Source: Escherichia coli (GTDB taxonomy: Bacteria > Pseudomonadota > Gammaproteobacteria > Enterobacterales > Enterobacteriaceae). Taken from it: a stretch of 64,000 nucleotides of DNA. Position 1 is the stretch's first letter; every line of letters begins with the position of its first letter. The notes under the pieces were generated by a model. That model saw only the letters and a program-made list of their open reading frames with translations. It was not told the DNA's origin and ran no database searches. Positions 8,343 through 56,249 of the stretch are shown one piece after another. The stretch lies in NCBI RefSeq assembly GCF_044324875.1, contig NZ_CP172187.1; one strand, 5' to 3'. Position numbers and translations under genes: made by a program.

Positions 8343-8498
8343 GGCTTGTTATGACTGTTTTTTTGTACAGTCTATGCCTCGGGCATCCAAGCAGCAAGCG
8401 CGTTACGCCGTGGGTCGATGTTTGATGTTATGGAGCAGCAACGATGTTACGCAGCAGGGCAGTCGCCCTAAAACAAAGTTAACCTCTGAGGAAGAATT

Positions 8499-8972
8499 GT
8501 GAAACTATCACTAATGGTAGCTATATCGAAGAATGGAGTTATCGGGAATGGCCCTGATATTCCATGGAGTGCCAAAGGTGAACAGCTCCTGTTTAAAGCT
8601 ATTACCTATAACCAATGGCTGTTGGTTGGACGCAAGACTTTTGAATCAATGGGAGCATTACCCAACCGAAAGTATGCGGTCGTAACACGTTCAAGTTTTA
8701 CATCTGACAATGAGAACGTAGTGATCTTTCCATCAATTAAAGATGCTTTAACCAACCTAAAGAAAATAACGGATCATGTCATTGTTTCAGGTGGTGGGGA
8801 GATATACAAAAGCCTGATCGATCAAGTAGATACACTACATATATCTACAATAGACATCGAGCCGGAAGGTGATGTTTACTTTCCTGAAATCCCCAGCAAT
8901 TTTAGGCCAGTTTTTACCCAAGACTTCGCCTCTAACATAAATTATAGTTACCAAATCTGGCAAAAGGGTTAA
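8499..8972 (+). CDS. dfrA1: Trimethoprim-resistant dihydrofolate reductase cassette, DfrA1 type
   Basis: 157 aa matching DfrA1 as remembered ([42 protein letters not shown]...); first cassette after attI1. Confidence 0.85.
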
Positions 8973-43986: not shown

Positions 43987-44183
43987 TACAGGGGCAGGCG
44001 GTGGAGGCCGCCTGTCAGCCCGCGCGAAAACCCCTGGCAGGCTGACGCCTGCCGGAAGGGAAGCGGGCCACGCTGGCGCGTCGCCCGTTACCCTTCCCGT
44101 CTGTGATGTGTCTGACTCAGGAGTGTTTCTTTCTTATGTTGCGGAACTGTTCCTGATGTTGTTGTTGTTCCTTTATCTGCTGC

Positions 44184-44788
44184 TCTGATTCTGACTACTG
44201 CAGTGTTGTTCTGTCTGCCGGGCGCACCTTCGGCTCCCGGCTGCCTGGCGGCATCCGGTCGTCAGGCCCGACTCCGACAGGCAGCTGCTGGCGCACCTGC
44301 CAGTCTCCGCCGAACCCGCTGGCGCGGCTTCGGGCTGCCGCTACGGTCCGATGCGTGAAAACCCCGGGCTTGCAGCGACCGTTCTGGTCGCGCCGCCTCT
44401 GTCGCGCCGTGGCCTGCGCTCCAGGCATCCCGGCAAAAAGACGCCGGGATGTAAGGCGCAACGCCGTTTCGCAAACCGCGCTTCACGTCGTTGCTGCGGG
44501 TCCCTGCTCATTGCCTGCCGGGTGCCACACACCCGTATGAGTCCCTGTCGCCGGGGGCATAGACAGCCACAACCTGCCGCACTGACTGTCCAGGGTAAAT
44601 GAACAGCCCACAAAATTTTTTACCCAAAACCCGGTAAAAAATTTTGCGTTCTGCCCAGGACAGGTGCGTCAGGCCGTGGCAGTGATGCCCCTTGCGGCGA
44701 AGGTTCTCAAACGGGTGAAGTTCATACCACAGGGAATACAGCAGCAGGTTCCCGCGAAACGTCAAAACCGCGGCTCCCGAAACTCAAC
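44184..44788 (+). repeat. Leading-region GC-rich repeat, family B copy 1 (about 605 bp), candidate ssDNA promoter (Frpo-like)
   Basis: Near-identical copies at 47544-48147 and 55606-56210, each immediately upstream of a gene. Confidence 0.7.
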
Positions 44789-45027
44789 GGGTGATGTTCT
44801 TTAAAAATCAGGATTTATTTCAGGCTCCGGCAATACGCATTTATGTGTTCTGTCAGTCATCCGGCTGGCAGGTAATGAGAACGCAGGAACAGAAGGAGGA
44901 AAACACCGGAGAACGTCAGACGCAGATATGAAAAAAGCAGGCCGGGGAGGACCTGCTTAATCCACACCGCAAAAACTGTTCGAGCAGTTTCTGCGGTTCC
45001 ATTCAACAGTCATAAGGAGTTTCATTT

Positions 45028-45258
45028 ATGACGGTAAGTATTGTTTCACCTTCCGCAGCGGCTGTAAAGCCCCGCCGTCATCCCCGTTTCAGACGCGAAG
45101 ACATCCCCGCGCCGGAAATTGACCCCGTGCTGAAAGCCTTCGGGCGACACATAGCCCGGAGTTTTCACCGGGGGCGTGGTGTACACATCCCCGCCATGAA
45201 AAACACGGCCTTCGGGCAGGTGCTCCGCACACTCGAACTGAAACGCGCTTTTAACTGA
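45028..45258 (+). CDS. Hypothetical small protein
   Basis: 76 aa with strong AAGGAG RBS. Confidence 0.4.
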   Translation: MTVSIVSPSAAAVKPRRHPRFRREDIPAPEIDPVLKAFGRHIARSFHRGRGVHIPAMKNTAFGQVLRTLELKRAFN

Positions 45259-47460: not shown

Positions 47461-47526
47461 CTGCTACTGCTACTGCTACTGCTACTGCTACTGCTACTGC
47501 TACTGCTACTGCTACTGCTACTGCTC
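47461..47526. repeat. Hexanucleotide tandem repeat (CTGCTA)x11
   Basis: Perfect 66-bp array; absent from the corresponding position in the other two family B copies. Confidence 0.85.
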
Positions 47527-47543
47527 TTCTTTTTCCTGCTGCT

Positions 47544-48147
47544 CTGATTCTGACTACTGCAGTGTTGTTCTGTCTGCCGGGCGCACCTTCGGCTCCCGGC
47601 TGCCTGGCGGCATCCGGTCGTCAGGCCCGACTCCGACAGGCAGCTGCTGGCGCACCTGCCAGTCTCCGCCGAACCCGCTGGCGCGGTTTCGGGCTGCCGC
47701 TACGGTCCGATGCGTGAAAACCCGGCTTGCAGCGACCGTTCCGGTCGCGCCGCCCCTGTCGCGCCGTGACCTGCGCTCCAGGCATCCCGGCAAAAAGACG
47801 CCGGGATGTAAGGCGCAACGCCGTTTCGCAAACCGCGCTTCACGTCGTTGCGGCGGGTCCCTGCCCGTTGTTGTGTCCGGTGCCATTCACCTGTTTAAGC
47901 CCCTGTCGCCGGGGGCTGATACAGCCACAACCTGCCGCACTGACTGTCCAGGGTAAATGAACAGCCCACAAAATTTTTTACCCAAAACCCGGTAAAAAAT
48001 TTTGCGTTCTGCCCAGGACAGGTGCGTCAGGCCGTGGCAGTGATGCCCCATGCGGCGAAGGTTCTCAAACAGGTGATGGTGAATACCGGAGGGAACAAAG
48101 AGCAGGTCCCCGCAAAACGTCAAAACCGCGGCTCCCGAAACTCAACA
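47544..48147 (+). repeat. Leading-region GC-rich repeat, family B copy 2, immediately upstream of ssb
   Basis: Near-identical to 44184-44788 and 55606-56210. Confidence 0.7.
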
Positions 48148-48187
48148 GATGATGGGGGCTGAAAACATCAACAGAAGGAGACACATC

Positions 48188-51100
48188 ATGGCAGTTCGTG
48201 GCATTAACAAGGTCATTCTTGTCGGTGTGCGCCGTTGAAGCGCGGTGTTTTATGGAGTGTTGCCTGAAAAGCAACATGGCTTAGTGGTATAGCCATTGCA
48301 TACTGTGGTTAGCCTTGCTTGGTAACAGGCTCGGAGATCCTGAAAAGGAGAGGTGAACATAGCATCCACAGAAAAGGGTGGTGAATATGGAAATCGTTAT
48401 AAGTATCACCATTCAATGCAAGATGTATATGGATAAACTGGGTTTGTTGAAGTCGAGATCTATGTGGGAAACAGGAAACCAATAACGCAGAACGATTGAA
48501 GCGTTATTCCCGTACTAGCACAAGAAATCCGTCCGACGTTGATTGTGACCACTCTAACGGGCCAGCTATTGATGAAATAGTTAAACGATCGAAAGACATC
48601 CTAAGTACATCGCATCTCCACACCGTGAAACTACGGGACTACCTAAACTGGATTTATACCCAGCATGGTAGCGGAGTCTCCATAGTACTCAAGGTCGGCC
48701 TGTAATGGGTTCCGGCAGTCCGCATTATACGGAAGCAGCAAAGGTATAAATCAACCGGAAGGAAGATGAAAGCCTCACAGTGCTGCGGGGAAGGGAGACA
48801 GTTGTTAGATACATCAATCTCTAAGAGGAGGGTTAGCCAATGCTGCCTGATGAACTTGAGAAAAGATTAGATGGAATTGAGGATGCTTCAAAAAAAGGGT
48901 ATCCAGTACGTAATCTATACAAAATTGCGTGTGAGCCCGGACTGTGGCTGCAAGCCTACGTGAATATACGGGCCAATGCAGGTGCACTGACTCAAGGTGT
49001 ATCAACAGATACCATTGATGGCTTTTCTATCGAAAGAGCAGAGAAGCTGGCAAAAACATTGCGGAGTAGAGAATACGTAGCGAAACCTGTACGCAGAGTT
49101 CAGATCCCAAAAAAGGACGGAAAAACCAGACCGCTGGGGATTCCAGGTGGAGACGATAAACTGGCGCAAGAAGTAGCAAGAATTATTCTGGAAAGGGTTT
49201 ATGAACCAGTATTCTCTGAACACTCTCATGGATTCAGACCAAAACGTTCGTGTGAAACTGCGCTCAGATCTATTCGTCCAGTCTGGAACGGAGTTAAATG
49301 GATCGTGGATGTTGATATCAAAGGTTTCTTTGACAATATCCCCCACAAACTATTGCTGAATACACTGGCAGAGAAAATTAAGGATAAGAATTTCCTGAAA
49401 TTAATCGAACAGTGGCTGAAGGCAGGATATGTGGACAATTGGAAATACCATCGCTCATATTCTGGCACGCCACAAGGTGGGATAATTTCTCCCTTACTGG
49501 CAAATATATACCTCGACAAACTGGACCGTTTTGTAGAACAGAATTTAATTCCTGCATATACAAGCGGTACAAAACGAAGAGCGAATCCAGATATGAACAG
49601 GCTGGCCCATAAGATTCATAAACTACGAAAGAAAGTAGACGGTATGGCAACTGATTCTGAATCAGAAAAAGAAGCCATAAAGAAAGAAATTGAACGACTG
49701 CTTGAAGAAAAACGTTCTATACCATCTCAGGTCATGAACGATCCAAACTTCAGGCGTATGTACTATGTTCGATATGCTGATGACTTCGTAATCGGTGTCA
49801 TCGGCTCGAAGAAAGATGCTGAACATATATCAAGACAGGTCAGAAACTTTATTACTACTTCACTGGGATTGGAAGTTAATGAAGCAAAGACCAGGATCCG
49901 CCATATCTCAGAAGGAGTTAATTTTTTAGGCTATGAAATCAGACAGGCAGATGCAAAGAAATTGCTGAAGCAGAAAATGCAAGGGCGGCACGCTCTCCGG
50001 AGATCCACCACAGGAATTGTGCAGCTCTTCGTTCCTGACAATATAGCCGCTAAATTTTGTCACCAAAAGAAATATGGCTGTTATGAGAATGTGAAGGCTG
50101 TACATCGTTCAAGTCTACAAAATCTCAGTGAAGCTGAAATTGTTCTGACTTTCAACGCGGAAATGCGCGGATTGGCGAACTACTACAGTCTGGCGCTGGA
50201 CATGAAATATAAATTATCAAAATTATATTTCATATGGCAAATAAGCCTTTTTAAGACCCTGGCGAATAAACGACGTAGTTCAGTGAATAAAGTCGCCAAA
50301 TCGCTACGGCAAAATAATGGAGATCTGGCTATTACCGTTCAGGCCAAAAATGGATCCCGAAAGATTGAGGTTTTCAAACTCAAACATGTCAATCGCAACC
50401 GAACAACGATTGTCGATACGGAACCGAGAACCGCACATATCACAACCCGCACAACAGAGATCATGCGTCGATTAGGGGCAAGGATCTGCGAGTATTGTGC
50501 GAAGACTGGGCGCTGCGAAGTACATCATGTCAGAAAGCTAAAAGACCTGAAGAAAGGTCGTAAGGCCGGATATAAACCCAGCTTGTGGCAACTAATGATG
50601 ATCGCACGCCGCCGGAAAACGATGATTTTGTGCGCAAGTTGCCACGACAAGTTACATAGCGGAAAACTACCCGATTTGAGACAGGAAAAGGGAAGAATAC
50701 TCCTGCAACCACCTGTCTCAAGCGGGGATTCTGCTAAATGAGTTTATCCCCAATAAGCTAGCAATGGAGAGCCGTATGCACTGAAAGGTGCACGTACGGT
50801 TCGGAGGGGGGGTAACGGTGATCTAACTCAAGATAAGCAGGACATATTCGCCATTTATCTTGAAAGACCACACGTACCCTACCCTACCGTCTGGGAAAAG
50901 ATCCGGAAGTCCGTTACATCCCAAACGGGGGCGCAGTGGCAAACCTGCAGGTGGCCACGTCAGAAAGCTGGCGCGACAAACAGACGGGGGAGATACGGGA
51001 GCAGACAGAATGGCATCGCGTGGTGCTGTTCGGCAAGCTCGCGGAAGTGGCTGGTGAGTATCTGCGCAAGGGCGCGCAGGTCTACATCGAAGGTCAGCTT

Positions 51101-51376
51101 CGCACCCGTAGCTGGGAGGATAACGGTATCACCCGTTACGTCACCGAAATTCTTGTTAAGACCACGGGCACCATGCAGATGCTGGGACGTGCCGCAGGTA
51201 CTCAGACTCAGCCGGAAGAGGCGCAACAGTTCAGCGGTCAGCCTCAGCCGGAATCACAGCCGGAACCGAAAAAAGGAGGCGCGAAAACGAAAGGCCGTGG
51301 ACGTAAGGCCGCGCAGCCGGAGCCTCAGCAGCCGTCTGAACCCGCGTATGACTTCGATGACGACATTCCGTTCTAA
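48188..51376 (+). CDS. ssb: Plasmid single-stranded DNA-binding protein Ssb, interrupted by a group II intron (exon 1 48188-48226, exon 2 50888-51376)
   Basis: Exon 1 [13 protein letters not shown]; exon 2 [35 protein letters not shown]...DDDIPF; joined frame gives a 175 aa SSB. Confidence 0.8.
48227..50887 (+). mobile_element. Group II intron (about 2.66 kb) inserted in ssb
   Basis: Starts GTGCG; domain V-like GAGCCGTATGCACTGAAAGGTGCACGTACGGTTC at ~50768; encodes RT/maturase/HNH protein in domain IV. Confidence 0.8.
48840..50741 (+). CDS. Group II intron-encoded protein: reverse transcriptase, maturase and HNH endonuclease domains
   Basis: 633 aa; RT motifs incl. [13 protein letters not shown]-terminal HNH/Zn motif [17 protein letters not shown]...CASCHDKLH. 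Confidence 0.85.
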   Translation: MLPDELEKRLDGIEDASKKGYPVRNLYKIACEPGLWLQAYVNIRANAGALTQGVSTDTIDGFSIERAEKLAKTLRSREYVAKPVRRVQIPKKDGKTRPLGIPGGDDKLAQEVARIILERVYEPVFSEHSHGFRPKRSCETALRSIRPVWNGVKWIVDVDIKGFFDNIPHKLLLNTLAEKIKDKNFLKLIEQWLKAGYVDNWKYHRSYSGTPQGGIISPLLANIYLDKLDRFVEQNLIPAYTSGTKRRANPDMNRLAHKIHKLRKKVDGMATDSESEKEAIKKEIERLLEEKRSIPSQVMNDPNFRRMYYVRYADDFVIGVIGSKKDAEHISRQVRNFITTSLGLEVNEAKTRIRHISEGVNFLGYEIRQADAKKLLKQKMQGRHALRRSTTGIVQLFVPDNIAAKFCHQKKYGCYENVKAVHRSSLQNLSEAEIVLTFNAEMRGLANYYSLALDMKYKLSKLYFIWQISLFKTLANKRRSSVNKVAKSLRQNNGDLAITVQAKNGSRKIEVFKLKHVNRNRTTIVDTEPRTAHITTRTTEIMRRLGARICEYCAKTGRCEVHHVRKLKDLKKGRKAGYKPSLWQLMMIARRRKTMILCASCHDKLHSGKLPDLRQEKGRILLQPPVSSGDSAK

Positions 51377-51389
51377 CGAAAGACAGTGA

Positions 51390-51665
<276 letters not shown>

Positions 51666-51728
51666 GAGAGGTGCCGGACGGGAACGCGTCCGGCAGACAT
51701 ACAACCATCCCGGTCAAAGGAGAAATAT

Positions 51729-53686
51729 ATGTCAGTTACAGAGTCTAAGACAAAAACGGAGCGTAAATCCAGCCGTAAACCTGCAAAAACGCAGGAAACT
51801 GCACTGTCTGCCCTGCTGGCGCAGACGGAGGAAGTGAGCGTGCCGCTGGATTCACTGATTAAATCACCGCTGAATGTGCGCACGGTGCCGTATTCTGCGG
51901 AGTCCGTCAGTGAACTGGCTGATTCCATTAAGGGAGTCGGCCTGCTGCAGAATCTGGTTGTTCATGCCCTGCCAGGTGACCGTTACGGTGTCGCCGCAGG
52001 TGGTCGCCGACTGGCAGCACTCAACATGCTGGCAGAGCGTGACATCATTCAGGCTGACTGGCCTGTCCGCGTGAAAATTATTCCGCAGGAGCTGGCGACG
52101 GCTGCATCGATGACCGAGAACGGTCATCGTCGGGATATGCACCCTGCCGAACAGATTGCCGGATTCCGCGCAATGGCGCAGGAAGGCAAAACACCTGCGC
52201 AAATCGGTGATTTGCTGGGCTATTCACCCCGCCATGTCCAGCGAATGCTGAAACTGGCTGACCTTGCGCCTGTCATCCTCGATGCGCTGGCAGAAGACCG
52301 CATCACCACCGAACACTGTCAGGCGCTGGCGCTGGAGAACGACACCGCGCGTCAGGTGCAGGTGTTTGAAGCCGCTGCCAGTCAGGATGGGGTGGAAAAC
52401 CGGATGTGCGGGTTATCCGCAACCTGATTACGGAAAGTGAAGTGGCGGTGAAGGACAACACTAAATTTCGCTTTGTGGGGGCTGATGCTTTCTCGCCTGA
52501 CGAACTGCGCACCGATTTGTTCAGCGATGACGGGGACGGTTATGTCGACCGCGTGGCGCTCGATGCCGCCCTGCTGGAAAAACTCCAGGTTGTTGCAGAG
52601 TCCCTTCGGGAAGCAGAAGGCTGGGAATGGTGCGCCGGGCGCATGGAGCCAGTCGGTGAGTGCCGTGAGGATGCCGGAACATACCGCTGTCTGCCGGAGC
52701 CGGAAGCGGTGCTGACGGAGGCGGAAGAAGAACGCCTGAACGAACTGATGACGCGTTACGACGCGCTGGAAAACCAGTGTGAGGAATCCGACCTGCTGGA
52801 AGCAGAAATGAAGCTGATGCGCTGCATGGCGAAGGTCAGAGCGTGGACGCCGGAGATACGTGCCGGAAGCGGTGTGGTGGTGTCCTGGCGTTATGGCAAC
52901 GTATGTGTCCAGCGTGGTGTGCAGTTGCGCAGTGAAGATGACGCGACTGACGACGCTGACCGCACGGAACAGGTGCAGGAGAAAGCGTCAGTGGAGGAAA
53001 TCAGTCTGCCACTGCTGACGAAAATGTCTTCCGAACGCACGCTGGCAGTCCAGGCGGCACTGATGCAGCAACCGGACAAATCCCTGACACTGCTGGCATG
53101 GACGCTCTGCCTGAATGTGTTTGGCAGCGGAGCGTACAGTAAACCAGCACAAATCAGCCTGGAATGTAAACATTATTCGCTGACCAGCGATGCGCCGTCA
53201 GGGAAGGAAGGTGCCGCATTCATGGCGCTGATGGCAGAAAAAGCCCGTCTTGCGGCCCTGTTACCGGAGGGATGGTCACGGGACATGACGACATTCCTTT
53301 CACTCAGTCAGGAGGTGCTGTTATCCCTGCTCAGTTTCTGCACCGCGTGCAGCATCCACGGCGTTCAGACCCGCGAGTGTGGTCACACGTCACGCAGCCC
53401 GCTGGACACGCTGGAGAGCGCCATCGGTTTTCACATGCGCGACTGGTGGCAGCCGACAAAAGCAAACTTCTTCGGACACCTGAAAAAGCCGCAGATTATC
53501 GCAGCCCTGAATGAGGCAGGACTGTCCGGTGCCGCACGGGACGCGGAGAAGATGAAGAAAGGCGATGCGGCTGAACATGCAGAGTTCCATATGAAAGACA
53601 ACCGCTGGGTGCCTGGCTGGATGTGTGCACCACGTCCACAGACGGATACCACTGAACGCACTGATAACCTGGCTGATGCCGCCTGA
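51729..53686 (+). pseudogene. ParB-like nuclease domain protein gene, split by a +1 frameshift near 52400
   Basis: ORFs 51729-52427 and 52406-53686 overlap in different frames; first part has ParB/Srx-like N-domain; combined length about 650 aa. Confidence 0.6.
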
Positions 53687-53737
53687 TGAACAACCACACC
53701 GCCCCGCCGGAGACGGGGCGGCAGCAAGGGAGATACC

Positions 53738-54175
53738 GTGATGAAAACTGAACTGACCCTGAATGTCCTGCAGACCATGAACGCACAGGAATATGAAGAT
53801 ATCCGTGCTGCGGGAAGCGATATGCGCCGTAATCTCACTCACGAGGTGATGCGTAAAGTGGACGCACCGGCTAACTGGATGATGAATGGCGAGTATGGCA
53901 GTGAGTTCGGGGGCTTTTTCCCCGTCCAGGTTCGTTTCACGCCAGCCCACGAACGTTTTCACCTGGCGTTATGTTCACCGGGCGATGTCTCTCAGGTCTG
54001 GGTGCTGGTTCTGGTGAATGCCGGTGGTGAGCCGTTTGCGGTGGTTCAGGTGCAGCGGCGGTTTGCACCGGAAGCTGTCAGCCATTCACTGGCACTGGCG
54101 GCGTCACTGGATGCGCAGGGGTACAGCGTTAACGACATCATTCATATCCTGATGGCGGAAGGAGGTCAGGCATGA
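53738..54175 (+). CDS. psiB: Plasmid SOS inhibition protein PsiB
   Basis: [38 protein letters not shown]... Confidence 0.9.
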
Positions 54176-54891
54176 GCGCACGTTCACAGGCACTGGTTCC
54201 TCTCAGCACAGAGCAACAGGCCGCATGGCGGGCGGTGGCGGAGACCGAAAAACGCCGCCATCAGGGTAACACGCTGGCTGAATATCCGTATGCGGGTGCG
54301 TTTTTCCGCTGTCTGAACGGAAGCCGCAGGATATCGCTGTCTGACCTGCGATTTTTCATGCCGTCCCTGACCGCAGAAGAACTGCACGGCAACCGTCTTC
54401 AGTGGCTGTATGCCATCGATGTGCTGATTGAAACACAGGGCGAGGTCTGCCTCCTTCCCCTTCCCGGTGATGCAGCAGAGCGCTTGTTCCCGTCGGTGCG
54501 GTTTCGTGTCAGGGAACGCAGTCGCCATAAATCCGCGCTGGTCATGCAGAAGTACAGCCGCCAGCAGGCGAGGGAGGCAGAGCAGAAAGCCCGTGCGTAC
54601 CAGGCGCTGGTCGCTCAGGCTGAAATCGAACTGGCATTCCATTCGCCGGAAACAGTCGGAAGCTGGCATGCACGCTGGAGTGACCGGGTGGCAGAGCATG
54701 ACCTGGAAACCCTGTTCTGGCAGTGGGGCGAGCGTTTTCCGTCACTGGCCGGAATGGAACGCTGGCAGTGGCAGGATATGCCGTTCTGGCAGGTTATTGC
54801 GGAAGCCAGTCTTGCAGCAAGAGAGGCCGGTCACGCTGTCCGTGAGATGGAGCGGTGGATGGTGCCGAACAAACTCCGGGAGGCAGCGTGA
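54172..54891 (+). CDS. psiA: Plasmid SOS inhibition protein PsiA
   Basis: 239 aa, overlaps psiB stop. Confidence 0.85.
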
Positions 54892-55329: not shown

Positions 55330-55605
55330 CAACCTGGAGGCGGGCGCAGGCCCGCCTTTTCAGGACTGATGCTGGTCTGACTACTGAAGCGCCTTTATAA
55401 AGGGGCTGCTGGTTCGCCGGTAGCCCCTTTCTCCTTGCTGATGTTGTACGGGCATGAACAACCTGACTTCAGGAAGGTCGTTTCCCTTCAGGAACGGGGA
55501 TGAACGCGCGCCTGCGGCGCCCGTTCTTTTCCCCCGCCTTCTCTGGTTATGGCCTGTCAGAAATCACATCACCTTCCCTGTGATTATTCTCTTTTTCTTC
55601 CTGCT

Positions 55606-56210
55606 CTGATTCTGACTACTGCAGTGTTGTCCTGTCTGCCGGCGCACCTTCGGCTCCCGGCTGCCTGGCGGCATCCGGTCGTCAGGCCCGACTCCGACAG
55701 GCAGCTGCTGGCGCACCTGCCAGTCTCCGCCGAACCCGCTGGCGCGGTTTCGGGCTGTCGCTACGGTCCGATGCGTGAAAACCCCGGGCTTGCAGCGACC
55801 GTTCCGGTCGCGCCGCCTCTGTCGCGCCGTGGCCTGCGCTCCTGGCATCCCGGCAAAAAGACGCCGGGATGTAAGGCGCAACGCCGTTTCGCAAACCGCG
55901 CTTCACGTCGTTGCTGCGGGTCCCTGCCCGTTGTTGTGTCCGGTGCCATTCACCTGTTTAAGCCCCTGTCGCCGGGGGCTGATACAGCCACAACCTGCCG
56001 CACTGACTGTCCAGGGTAAATGAACAGCCCACAAAATTTTTTACCCAAAACCCGGTAAAAAATTTTGCGTTCTGCCCAGGACAGGTGCGTCAGGCCGTGG
56101 CAGTGATGCCCCATGCGGCGAAGGTTCTCAAACAGGTGATGGTGAATACCGGAGGGAACAAAGAGCAGGTCCCCGCAAAACGTCAAAACCGCGGCTCCCG
56201 AAACTCAACA
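55606..56210 (+). repeat. Leading-region GC-rich repeat, family B copy 3
   Basis: Near-identical to copies 1 and 2. Confidence 0.7.
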
Positions 56211-56249
56211 GATGATGGGGGCTGAAAACCAGAGAGAGGAGAAAGCTGG

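What the first reader, a model, noticed from the sequence alone, without database searches (positions are those of the whole stretch)
51729..53686. ParB-like nuclease gene of the leading region is split by a frameshift
Two ORFs (51729-52427 and 52406-53686) overlap by 22 bp in different frames and together span about 650 codons. Around GAAAACCGGATGTGCGG (near 52395-52412) one extra C would fuse them (ENPDVRVIRNL...). This could be a pseudogene, a sequencing error in a short run, or programmed frameshifting.
Basis: seen in the sequence. Interest (0 to 1): 0.4.

Follow-up and report, generated by a model that had tools for sequence, protein, structure and literature searches.

The report
Frameshifted plasmid ParB-like gene (yubM)
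A conserved but poorly understood plasmid gene that sits between ssb and psiB has lost a single C and is therefore broken into two reading frames; the loss is a real, inherited mutation seen in several independent assemblies, and broken copies of this gene are common, so the finding is ordinary.

Summary
The two overlapping ORFs (51729-52427 and 52406-53686) are real. Together they are one gene, the 652-codon ParB-like leading-region gene known as yubM (F), yfhA (IncI1) or parB2 (pED208). It lies in the cluster ssb-DUF905-yubM-psiB-psiA. At least 4,963 plasmids carry it as a single 1959-bp ORF. The window differs from an otherwise identical allele (plasmid p135-2) by one missing C in a CC doublet: GCCGCCTGCC became GCCGCTGCC, the surviving C is window 52375, codon 216. 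Sequencing error is very unlikely. The window and p135-2 show no gaps over 27.8 kb, and the exact frameshifted 232-aa product is encoded on 7 contigs from independent public assemblies, all with the same deletion. Programmed frameshifting is not supported: the split is not conserved, the 58-nt overlap zone has no slippery heptamer, and there is no unusual RNA structure. The break falls inside an ordered helix, not a linker. Disruption of this gene is common (10 of 60 sampled plasmids, 8 different lesions checked). Published experimental evolution found recurrent loss-of-function mutations here. Verdict: an ordinary, real pseudogene allele of low interest.

The parts
51729..53686 (+). Whole yubM/yfhA/parB2 pseudogene (1958 bp; the intact gene is 1959 bp, 652 codons).
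   Evidence: It aligns end to end with the intact gene of p135-2 (NZ_CP080262.1, WP_045146531.1) with one gap and no substitutions.
52374..52376 (+). Lesion: codon 216. One C of a CC doublet is deleted (GCC GCC TGC became GCC GCT GCC). The first altered residue is 217.
   Evidence: Four-way DNA alignment with L001, L002 and L003; the same gap appears against pEC958.
51729..52427 (+). ORF1: 216 native residues (ParB_N 38-131, HTH_ParB 136-219) plus 16 out-of-frame residues (ASQDGVENRMCGLSAT), ending at TGA.
   Evidence: ORF list. Pfam ParB_N scores 33.9 bits (cut-off 26.3) and HTH_ParB 34.3 bits (cut-off 22.6).
52370..52427 (+). The 58-nt zone where both frames are open. It has no X_XXY_YYZ heptamer and no unusual RNA structure.
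   Evidence: Frame analysis; RNA fold of 52370-52500 gives z = -0.92.
52406..53686 (+). ORF2: the remainder of the gene (native residues 227-652), listed from the first GTG after a stop. It is the uncharacterised C-terminal module. Whether it is translated is unknown.
   Evidence: ORF list. No Pfam or NCBIfam hit. Large homolog family, almost always fused to the ParB N-terminal module.
50888..51376 (+). ssb 3' exon (upstream gene of the operon). The 5' 39 nt of ssb lie before the intron, at 48188-48226.
   Evidence: Comparison with the intron-free contig L007; Pfam SSB.
51432..51665 (+). DUF905 gene between ssb and yubM.
   Evidence: Pfam DUF905, E = 1.1e-34; annotated at the same place in relatives.
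53738..54175 (+). psiB, immediately downstream (52 nt after the yubM stop).
   Evidence: Pfam PsiB, E = 1.5e-60.
54172..54891 (+). psiA.
   Evidence: Pfam PsiA, E = 8.5e-39.
51490..53930 (.). Approximately 2.4-kb recombination patch. Inside it the window matches the I-complex allele (p135-2). Outside it the window matches the F-type pEC958 allele. The deletion is the only difference from p135-2 within the patch.
   Evidence: Differences per 100 nt against both relatives.

Best explanation
This is a real, vertically inherited single-nucleotide deletion that turns the leading-region ParB-like gene yubM/yfhA/parB2 into a pseudogene or truncated gene. One C of a CC doublet in codon 216 was lost from an allele that is otherwise identical to intact copies. 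Translation from the normal ATG gives 216 native residues, covering the ParB N-terminal (ParB/Srx) domain and almost the whole HTH, followed by 16 aberrant residues and a stop at 52425-52427. The remaining 436 codons, a conserved but uncharacterised C-terminal module, are out of frame. ORF2's GTG 'start' is only the first start-like codon after a stop in that frame. The shown steps are the lesion, its derived state, its reproducibility in independent data, and the absence of recoding signals. The inferred steps are loss of full-length function, and that this is tolerated or even favoured: the gene is dispensable for transfer in the laboratory, and its loss can increase transfer rate in some hosts. 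A possible polar reduction of psiB/psiA expression is also only inferred.
For: (1) One gap and no substitutions against the intact 1959-bp gene of p135-2; pEC958 and pCREC-591_1 also have the extra C. (2) At least 4,963 plasmids carry a match covering at least 80% of the gene. Annotated copies are a single 'ParB/RepB/Spo0J family partition protein' CDS of 1959 bp in the same ssb-DUF905-X-psiB-psiA synteny. (3) The assembly is clean: 27,782 nt against p135-2 show 4 mismatches and no gaps. (4) The exact 232-aa frameshifted product is encoded on 7 contigs (GCA_022972835.1, GCA_022972715.1, GCA_902848135.1, GCA_902846475.1 and Logan assemblies of ERR2060076, ERR1790084 and ERR1622252; about 12 samples). 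All carry the deletion allele, and five of the seven are 100% identical to the window over up to 3,071 nt; the other two differ only outside the gene. One of them (L007) lacks the group II intron that the window has in ssb, so the allele exists in at least two structural variants of the backbone. (5) No PLSDB plasmid (among the 5,000 best-scoring matches kept) and no complete E. coli genome has the deletion allele, so it is derived and lineage-restricted. (6) The break lies inside a confidently modelled helix (residues 206-219, pLDDT about 96), not in a linker. (7) Disruption of this gene is common: 10 of 60 evenly sampled plasmids have no listed CDS here, and all 8 that were inspected are broken by different lesions, namely 3 nonsense codons, several frameshifts and a 5' deletion. 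pTB-nb2 has another 1-bp deletion in the same allele. (8) Literature: pED208 deleted for parB2 transfers normally and does not raise SOS (PMC8406263). In IncI1 plasmids, loss-of-function mutations including frameshifts arose repeatedly in this operon during experimental evolution, consistently affecting yfhA, and a yfhA deletion raised transfer rate in one host (PMC10104558).
Against: Raw reads were not available, so the independent contigs are the only check on read support. Their sequencing technology is inferred from the short-contig draft assemblies and was not verified. The seven contigs could come from closely related isolates, so they show reproducibility rather than many independent origins. 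No expression data exist, so residual function of the N-terminal fragment or translation of ORF2 cannot be excluded.
Confidence: 0.9

Rival explanations
1. Functional split gene: the deletion is real, but both halves are still made. ORF1 would be a stand-alone ParB_N+HTH protein. ORF2 would be translated by coupling or re-initiation at GTG 52406, 20 nt upstream of the ORF1 stop, so function is partly retained.
For: The 22-nt overlap geometry resembles translationally coupled genes. A weak GGGGTGG motif lies 10 nt upstream of the GTG. ORF2 is still fully open in every contig that spans it. A few distant relatives of the C-terminal module are 410-450 aa proteins without the N-terminal part (P0248, P0268, P0295, P0296).
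Against: The break is inside an ordered helix, and residues 217-226 would be in neither product. ORF2 being open carries no information, because there are no substitutions in the gene since the deletion. Almost all of the listed full-length homologs have the two modules fused. The short relatives were not checked for truncation at contig ends.
Confidence: 0.07
2. Sequencing or assembly error: the plasmid really carries an intact gene and one C was dropped by the sequencer or the polishing step.
For: It is a single-base indel, the commonest kind of assembly error. The sister record pTB-nb2 has a different single-base deletion in the same allele.
Against: The site is a CC doublet, not a long homopolymer, and is not a CCWGG site. 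There are no gaps in 27.8 kb against p135-2. The identical deletion is present in 7 contigs from at least four separate accession series.
Confidence: 0.02
3. Programmed -1 ribosomal frameshifting or another recoding event restores a full-length protein.
For: The downstream frame is -1 relative to ORF1, and both frames are open for 58 nt.
Against: The two-frame arrangement is absent from thousands of homologs and from alleles that are otherwise identical. The overlap zone has no X_XXY_YYZ heptamer. There is no run of A or T long enough for transcriptional slippage. The RNA fold of the zone is not unusual, z = -0.92.
Confidence: 0.01

Closest known systems
[quoted passage not shown]
   Same: The gene is the same. 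It is 99.95% identical in DNA to annotated intact copies (one gap). The synteny is the same. The ParB_N and HTH_ParB domains are the same. UniRef names cluster members 'Uncharacterized protein YubM' (PMC8406263; PMC10104558).
   Different: Here the reading frame is broken at codon 216, so the 652-aa protein cannot be made by standard decoding.
Loss-of-function mutations of yfhA in experimentally evolved IncI1 ESBL plasmids (PMC10104558)
   Same: The same gene, and the same class of lesion (frameshift or premature stop) in the same operon. The allele here is of the I-complex type.
   Different: Those mutations arose in a 15-day laboratory experiment and were shown to raise transfer rate in one host. 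Here the allele is a natural one on an F-type backbone, and its effect was not measured.
Chromosomal and plasmid partition ParB / Spo0J / Noc / KorB (CTP-dependent DNA clamps)
   Different: No parA partner is adjacent and no parS was identified. The C-terminal 430 residues are an unrelated, uncharacterised module rather than the short ParB dimerisation domain. The pED208 parB2 deletion had no detectable effect on transfer or on SOS induction (PMC8406263).

Membership tests
YubM/YfhA/ParB2 leading-region ParB-like gene | Position between ssb-DUF905 and psiB-psiA in the leading region of a conjugative plasmid. | tested here: met
   Pfam SSB, DUF905, PsiB and PsiA on the flanking ORFs. The gene order is the same in p135-2, pCREC-591_1 and pEC958.
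YubM/YfhA/ParB2 leading-region ParB-like gene | Near-identity to annotated members over the full length. | tested here: met
   100% coverage with one gap against 9 plasmids; at least 4,963 plasmids match over 80% or more of the gene.
YubM/YfhA/ParB2 leading-region ParB-like gene | A single uninterrupted ORF of about 650 codons. | tested here: not met
   A 1-bp deletion in codon 216 splits it into ORFs of 232 aa and 426 aa. It is therefore a pseudogene allele of the family, not an intact member.
ParB/Srx superfamily (ParB N-terminal domain plus HTH) | ParB_N and HTH_ParB profile matches above the curated cut-offs. | tested here: met
   ORF1 scores 33.9 bits for ParB_N (cut-off 26.3) and 34.3 bits for HTH_ParB (cut-off 22.6). 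TIGR00180 parB_part scores 64.4 bits (cut-off 58.45) on the intact protein.
ParB/Srx superfamily (ParB N-terminal domain plus HTH) | Conserved arginine patch GxxRxxA and the ENxxR box of the nucleotide-binding pocket. | tested here: met
   GGRRLAA aligns to GERRYRA of Spo0J. G91, R94 and N131 are invariant and E130 is nearly invariant (at least 90%) in 83 diverse homologs.
Canonical ParABS partition ParB | An adjacent parA ATPase gene and a cognate parS centromere. | tested here: not met
   The neighbours are ssb, DUF905 and psiB, with no ParA gene adjacent. No parS search was done.
Canonical ParABS partition ParB | CTP binding and hydrolysis, and sliding-clamp behaviour. | not testable with these tools
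   This needs biochemistry.
Programmed -1 ribosomal frameshift site | The two-frame arrangement is conserved among homologs. | tested here: not met
   Homologs are single ORFs. No PLSDB plasmid among the 5,000 best-scoring matches and no complete E. coli genome shares the deletion.
Programmed -1 ribosomal frameshift site | A slippery heptamer X_XXY_YYZ in the overlap zone. | tested here: not met
   None is found in 52370-52427.
Programmed -1 ribosomal frameshift site | A stimulatory downstream RNA structure. | tested here: not met
   The minimum free energy of 52370-52500 is not different from shuffles, z = -0.92.
Sequencing/assembly artefact | The change is not reproducible in independent data sets. 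| tested here: not met
   The same deletion is found in 7 contigs from 4 NCBI assemblies and 3 Logan run assemblies.
Sequencing/assembly artefact | It lies in a long homopolymer and is accompanied by other indels in the assembly. | tested here: not met
   The site is a CC doublet, and there are no gaps in 27,782 nt against p135-2.

The most novel reading that the evidence does not exclude
The deletion is not just tolerated decay. It may be a field example of adaptive loss of yubM/yfhA. In this reading, natural plasmids recurrently inactivate this widely conserved leading-region gene because, in some hosts, its loss raises conjugative transfer, as experimentally evolved IncI1 plasmids showed. 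This allele, carried on an F-type backbone after recombination from an I-complex plasmid and persisting through gain or loss of an intron, would then be one such selected variant. Roughly 7-17% of sampled plasmids carry other disrupted copies.
Probability: 0.15. Interest if true: 0.4.

Novelty: already known. Interest (0 to 1): 0.12.

Why it matters
The finding matters little on its own. It is one more pseudogene allele of a known, frequently disrupted plasmid gene, and annotation pipelines already flag such cases as 'frameshifted'. There are three useful by-products. First, the exact lesion and proof that it is real mean that annotators should keep it as a pseudogene rather than 'correct' it. 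Second, disrupted copies of yubM/yfhA are common in natural plasmids, which fits published evidence that losing this gene can raise transfer rate in some hosts and could motivate a proper population-level test. Third, the conserved 430-residue C-terminal module of this family has no Pfam or NCBIfam model and no convincing structural relative, so the function of a gene present in thousands of resistance plasmids remains open.

Tried and rejected
(1) Sequencing error was rejected, for the reasons given under the rival explanations.

(2) Programmed frameshifting was rejected.

(3) 'Naturally two genes' was rejected.

(4) I tested whether yubM is disrupted more often than its neighbours, using an evenly spaced sample of 60 plasmids for psiB-psiA. 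The result was inconclusive. psiB is missing in about 2-3 of 60 but is 4.5 times shorter, so the rate per kb is similar. psiA's absence from many gene tables looks like an annotation artefact, because pEC958's psiA is flagged 'frameshifted' although it is identical to the window's full-length ORF.

(5) The search for homologous proteins returned only copies at least 89% identical, which were useless for modelling. The 50%-clustered representative search was used instead.

(7) A literature search for 'yubM' returned only noise from an author's name.

(8) The promoter and terminator scan found no + strand promoter between ssb and psiB, but the counts did not exceed those of shuffles. The single-operon reading therefore rests on gene spacing and on the literature.

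(9) Some frameshifts in the sampled disrupted copies, especially L018 with many frame changes, may themselves be assembly errors. Only the three nonsense alleles and the 5' deletion are robust.

Full report
**Observation**

The + strand carries ORF 51729-52427 (232 aa, ATG start) and ORF 52406-53686 (426 aa, GTG start). They overlap by 22 nt, and the second lies in the -1 frame relative to the first.

ORF1 has ParB_N (residues 38-131) and HTH_ParB (136-219) matches above Pfam's cut-offs. ORF2 matches no Pfam or NCBIfam model. The flanking genes are:
- upstream: ssb and a DUF905 gene
- downstream: psiB and psiA

traJ 5' UTR/FinP lies at 59.2 kb and sok at 55.0 kb. This is therefore the leading region of an F-type conjugative plasmid, and the closest backbones over 40-64 kb are pEC958/pEK499-like.

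**What the two ORFs are**

A megablast of 51729-53686 against PLSDB hits at least 5,000 plasmids, and 4,963 of them cover 80% or more of the query. The annotated copies are a single 1959-bp CDS called 'ParB/RepB/Spo0J family partition protein'. UniRef calls members of the same 90% cluster 'Uncharacterized protein YubM'. [quoted passage not shown] In IncI1 plasmids it is called yfhA (PMC10104558).

**The lesion**

Nine plasmids match over 1959 nt where the query has 1958. A four-way alignment shows that the only difference from p135-2 (NZ_CP080262.1) over the whole gene is one missing C. GAAGCCGCCTGCCAG in p135-2 reads GAAGCCGCTGCCAG in the window, and the surviving C is 52375.

- Codon 216 changes silently (GCC to GCT), and the first altered residue is 217.
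- ORF1 is therefore 216 native residues plus 16 aberrant ones.
- GTG 52406 corresponds to native V227, so residues 217-226 belong to neither ORF.
- The ancestral junction is FEAACQSGWGGKPDVRVIRNL.

ORF2's frame is closed by TGA at 52367-52369, so both frames are open only over 52370-52427.

**Real mutation or error?**

- *Quality of the assembly.* The window and p135-2 share a 27,782-nt stretch (7674-35455) with 4 mismatches and no gaps. The assembly is therefore not indel-prone.
- *Sequence context.* The site is a CC doublet, not a homopolymer run.
- *Reproducibility.* The exact 232-aa product, including its frameshift-specific tail, was looked up by identity and is encoded on 7 contigs. These are four NCBI draft assemblies (GCA_022972835.1, GCA_022972715.1, GCA_902848135.1, GCA_902846475.1) and three Logan assemblies of public runs (ERR2060076, ERR1790084, ERR1622252). 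Together they stand for about 12 samples.
- *Identity of those contigs.* All seven contain the deletion allele and none contains the intact string. Five are 100% identical to the window over up to 3,071 nt. The few differences in the other two lie outside the gene: at a contig end in both, plus one substitution at 51521 in L012.
- *Two backbone variants.* One contig (L007) lacks the group II intron that interrupts ssb in the window. The allele therefore exists in at least two structural variants of the plasmid.
- *Absence elsewhere.* No PLSDB plasmid among the 5,000 best-scoring matches kept by the search, and no complete E. coli RefSeq genome, carries the deletion. The best matches to an 80-nt probe are 98.8%, which is one gap.

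I conclude that the deletion is real, derived and lineage-restricted. That the independent contigs come from short-read data is my inference from their lengths. It was not verified.

**Programmed frameshifting**

A -1 shift inside 52370-52427 would be needed.
- The zone contains no X_XXY_YYZ heptamer.
- It has no A or T run suited to transcriptional slippage.
- Its RNA fold is unremarkable, z = -0.92.
- The arrangement is absent from thousands of homologs and from alleles that are otherwise identical.

Recoding is therefore not supported.

**Origin of the allele**

Counting differences per 100 nt shows a mosaic. Outside about 51,490-53,930 the window is identical to F-type pEC958. Inside that 2.4-kb patch it is identical to the I-complex allele of p135-2 (typed IncK2/Z), and it is 98.6% identical to IncI-gamma/K1 plasmids. 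The deletion is the only difference within the patch. It therefore arose recently on a recombinant allele.

**What is lost**

The N-terminal 220 residues align to Spo0J, ParB and Noc structures. The best is 1vz0 at E = 1e-17, with GGRR aligned to GERR.

A search with the C-terminal 436 residues against 50%-clustered representatives finds 2,239 relatives at E <= 0.001. The full-length ones are 600-720 aa, with this module at about residues 200-650. In a sample of them the N-terminal part matches ParB_N and/or HTH_ParB, and the C-terminal part matches nothing.

An alignment of 83 diverse members shows G91, R94, N131 and Q209 invariant in the N-terminal part, and conserved blocks throughout the C-terminal part.

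An AlphaFold2 model of the intact protein is confident, with mean pLDDT 90.3 and pTM 0.72. It places residue 216 inside helix 206-219, in a region with pLDDT about 96. The break is therefore not at a domain linker.

The most likely outcome is therefore a truncated ParB_N+HTH fragment and loss of the full-length function. Translation of ORF2 by re-initiation is possible but unsupported.

**How ordinary is this?**

- In an evenly spaced sample of 60 of the 5,000 best-matching plasmids, 10 have no CDS listed at the gene.
- I fetched 8 of them, and all are truly disrupted, each differently:
  - in-frame stop codons at about codons 151, 287 and 442;
  - single or multiple frameshifts;
  - one 5' deletion.
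- pTB-nb2 has another 1-bp deletion, at codon 511, in the same allele.
- Some of those frameshifts may be assembly errors. The nonsense alleles and the 5' deletion are not.
- A control sample for psiB-psiA did not show that yubM is hit more often per kb.

Published work fits tolerance of loss. Deleting parB2 from pED208 did not detectably change transfer or mating-induced SOS, although ParB2 is translocated to recipients (PMC8406263). In IncI1 ESBL plasmids, loss-of-function mutations, including frameshifting insertions and premature stops, arose in parallel in this operon and consistently affected yfhA. A yfhA deletion raised transfer rate in one host strain but not in another (PMC10104558).

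**Verdict**

Three points need correcting: the position of the lesion, the ancestral junction sequence, and the 'nuclease' label.

The finding is an ordinary pseudogene allele of a known gene and of low interest. The most novel reading still open is that such natural loss-of-function alleles are selected because they raise transfer in some hosts. I give that reading a probability of about 0.15.

Noticed in passing
window 48227-50887 (+): A 2,661-nt group II intron (GTGCG...CCTAC; RT/maturase ORF 48840-50741, 633 aa; Rfam Intron_gpII at 50767-50887) is inserted in ssb between codons 13 and 14 (KVILVG|RLGKDPE). The empty site, with an intact 175-aa ssb, is seen in contig L007 (GCA_022972835.1). 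pEC958 carries the same insertion.
   Followed up: partly
window ~51,490-53,930: A roughly 2.4-kb recombination patch. The 3' end of the DUF905 gene, yubM and the 5' end of psiB are of the I-complex (IncK2/Z p135-2) allele, embedded in an F-type (pEC958-like) leading region. In 100-nt bins outside the patch, identity to p135-2 falls to about 35-70% in the most divergent ones.
   Followed up: yes
window 44168-44796, 47508-48166, 55590-56229 (+): Three direct repeats of about 640 nt in the leading region, 91-98% alike. PGAP labels the equivalents in pEC958 as 'single-stranded DNA-binding protein, frameshifted' pseudogenes. From their position upstream of operons, they probably contain the ssi/Frpo single-strand promoter regions described in the literature.
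   Followed up: no
window 54172-54891 (+); L006 14358-15120: psiA is a full-length 239-aa ORF with a complete Pfam PsiA match. Yet the identical sequence in pEC958 is flagged 'frameshifted' by PGAP, and psiA is missing from the gene tables of about half of the sampled plasmids. This is probably an annotation artefact rather than real decay.
   Followed up: partly
window 1-44057 vs NZ_CP080262.1: The window shares long, nearly identical stretches with the chicken E. coli plasmid p135-2 (typed IncK2/Z, with an IncFII-family repA). One stretch is 27.8 kb with 4 mismatches and covers the resistance region (Tn3/blaTEM-1, tet(A), mer, class 1 integron dfrA1-aadA1-sul1). The transfer region, however, is F-type. 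This points to recent exchange between F-type and I-complex plasmids.
   Followed up: partly
L002 (NZ_CP033633.1 pTB-nb2), locus ~4533; window-equivalent 53261: A sister plasmid carries a different single-base deletion (a T of a TT doublet, codon 511) in the same yubM allele. PLSDB lists no CDS there.
   Followed up: partly
[not shown]
   Followed up: partly
window 53697-53723 (+): A G+C-rich hairpin of 12 pairs with no T-run on the + strand lies between the yubM stop and psiB. Its role is unknown.
   Followed up: no
window 44932-45033 (-), 8432-8503 (+): Rfam hits above the gathering score: AS-pc01 (antisense to pHK01_035) and the AAC_AAD leader/attI site of the class 1 integron.
   Followed up: no
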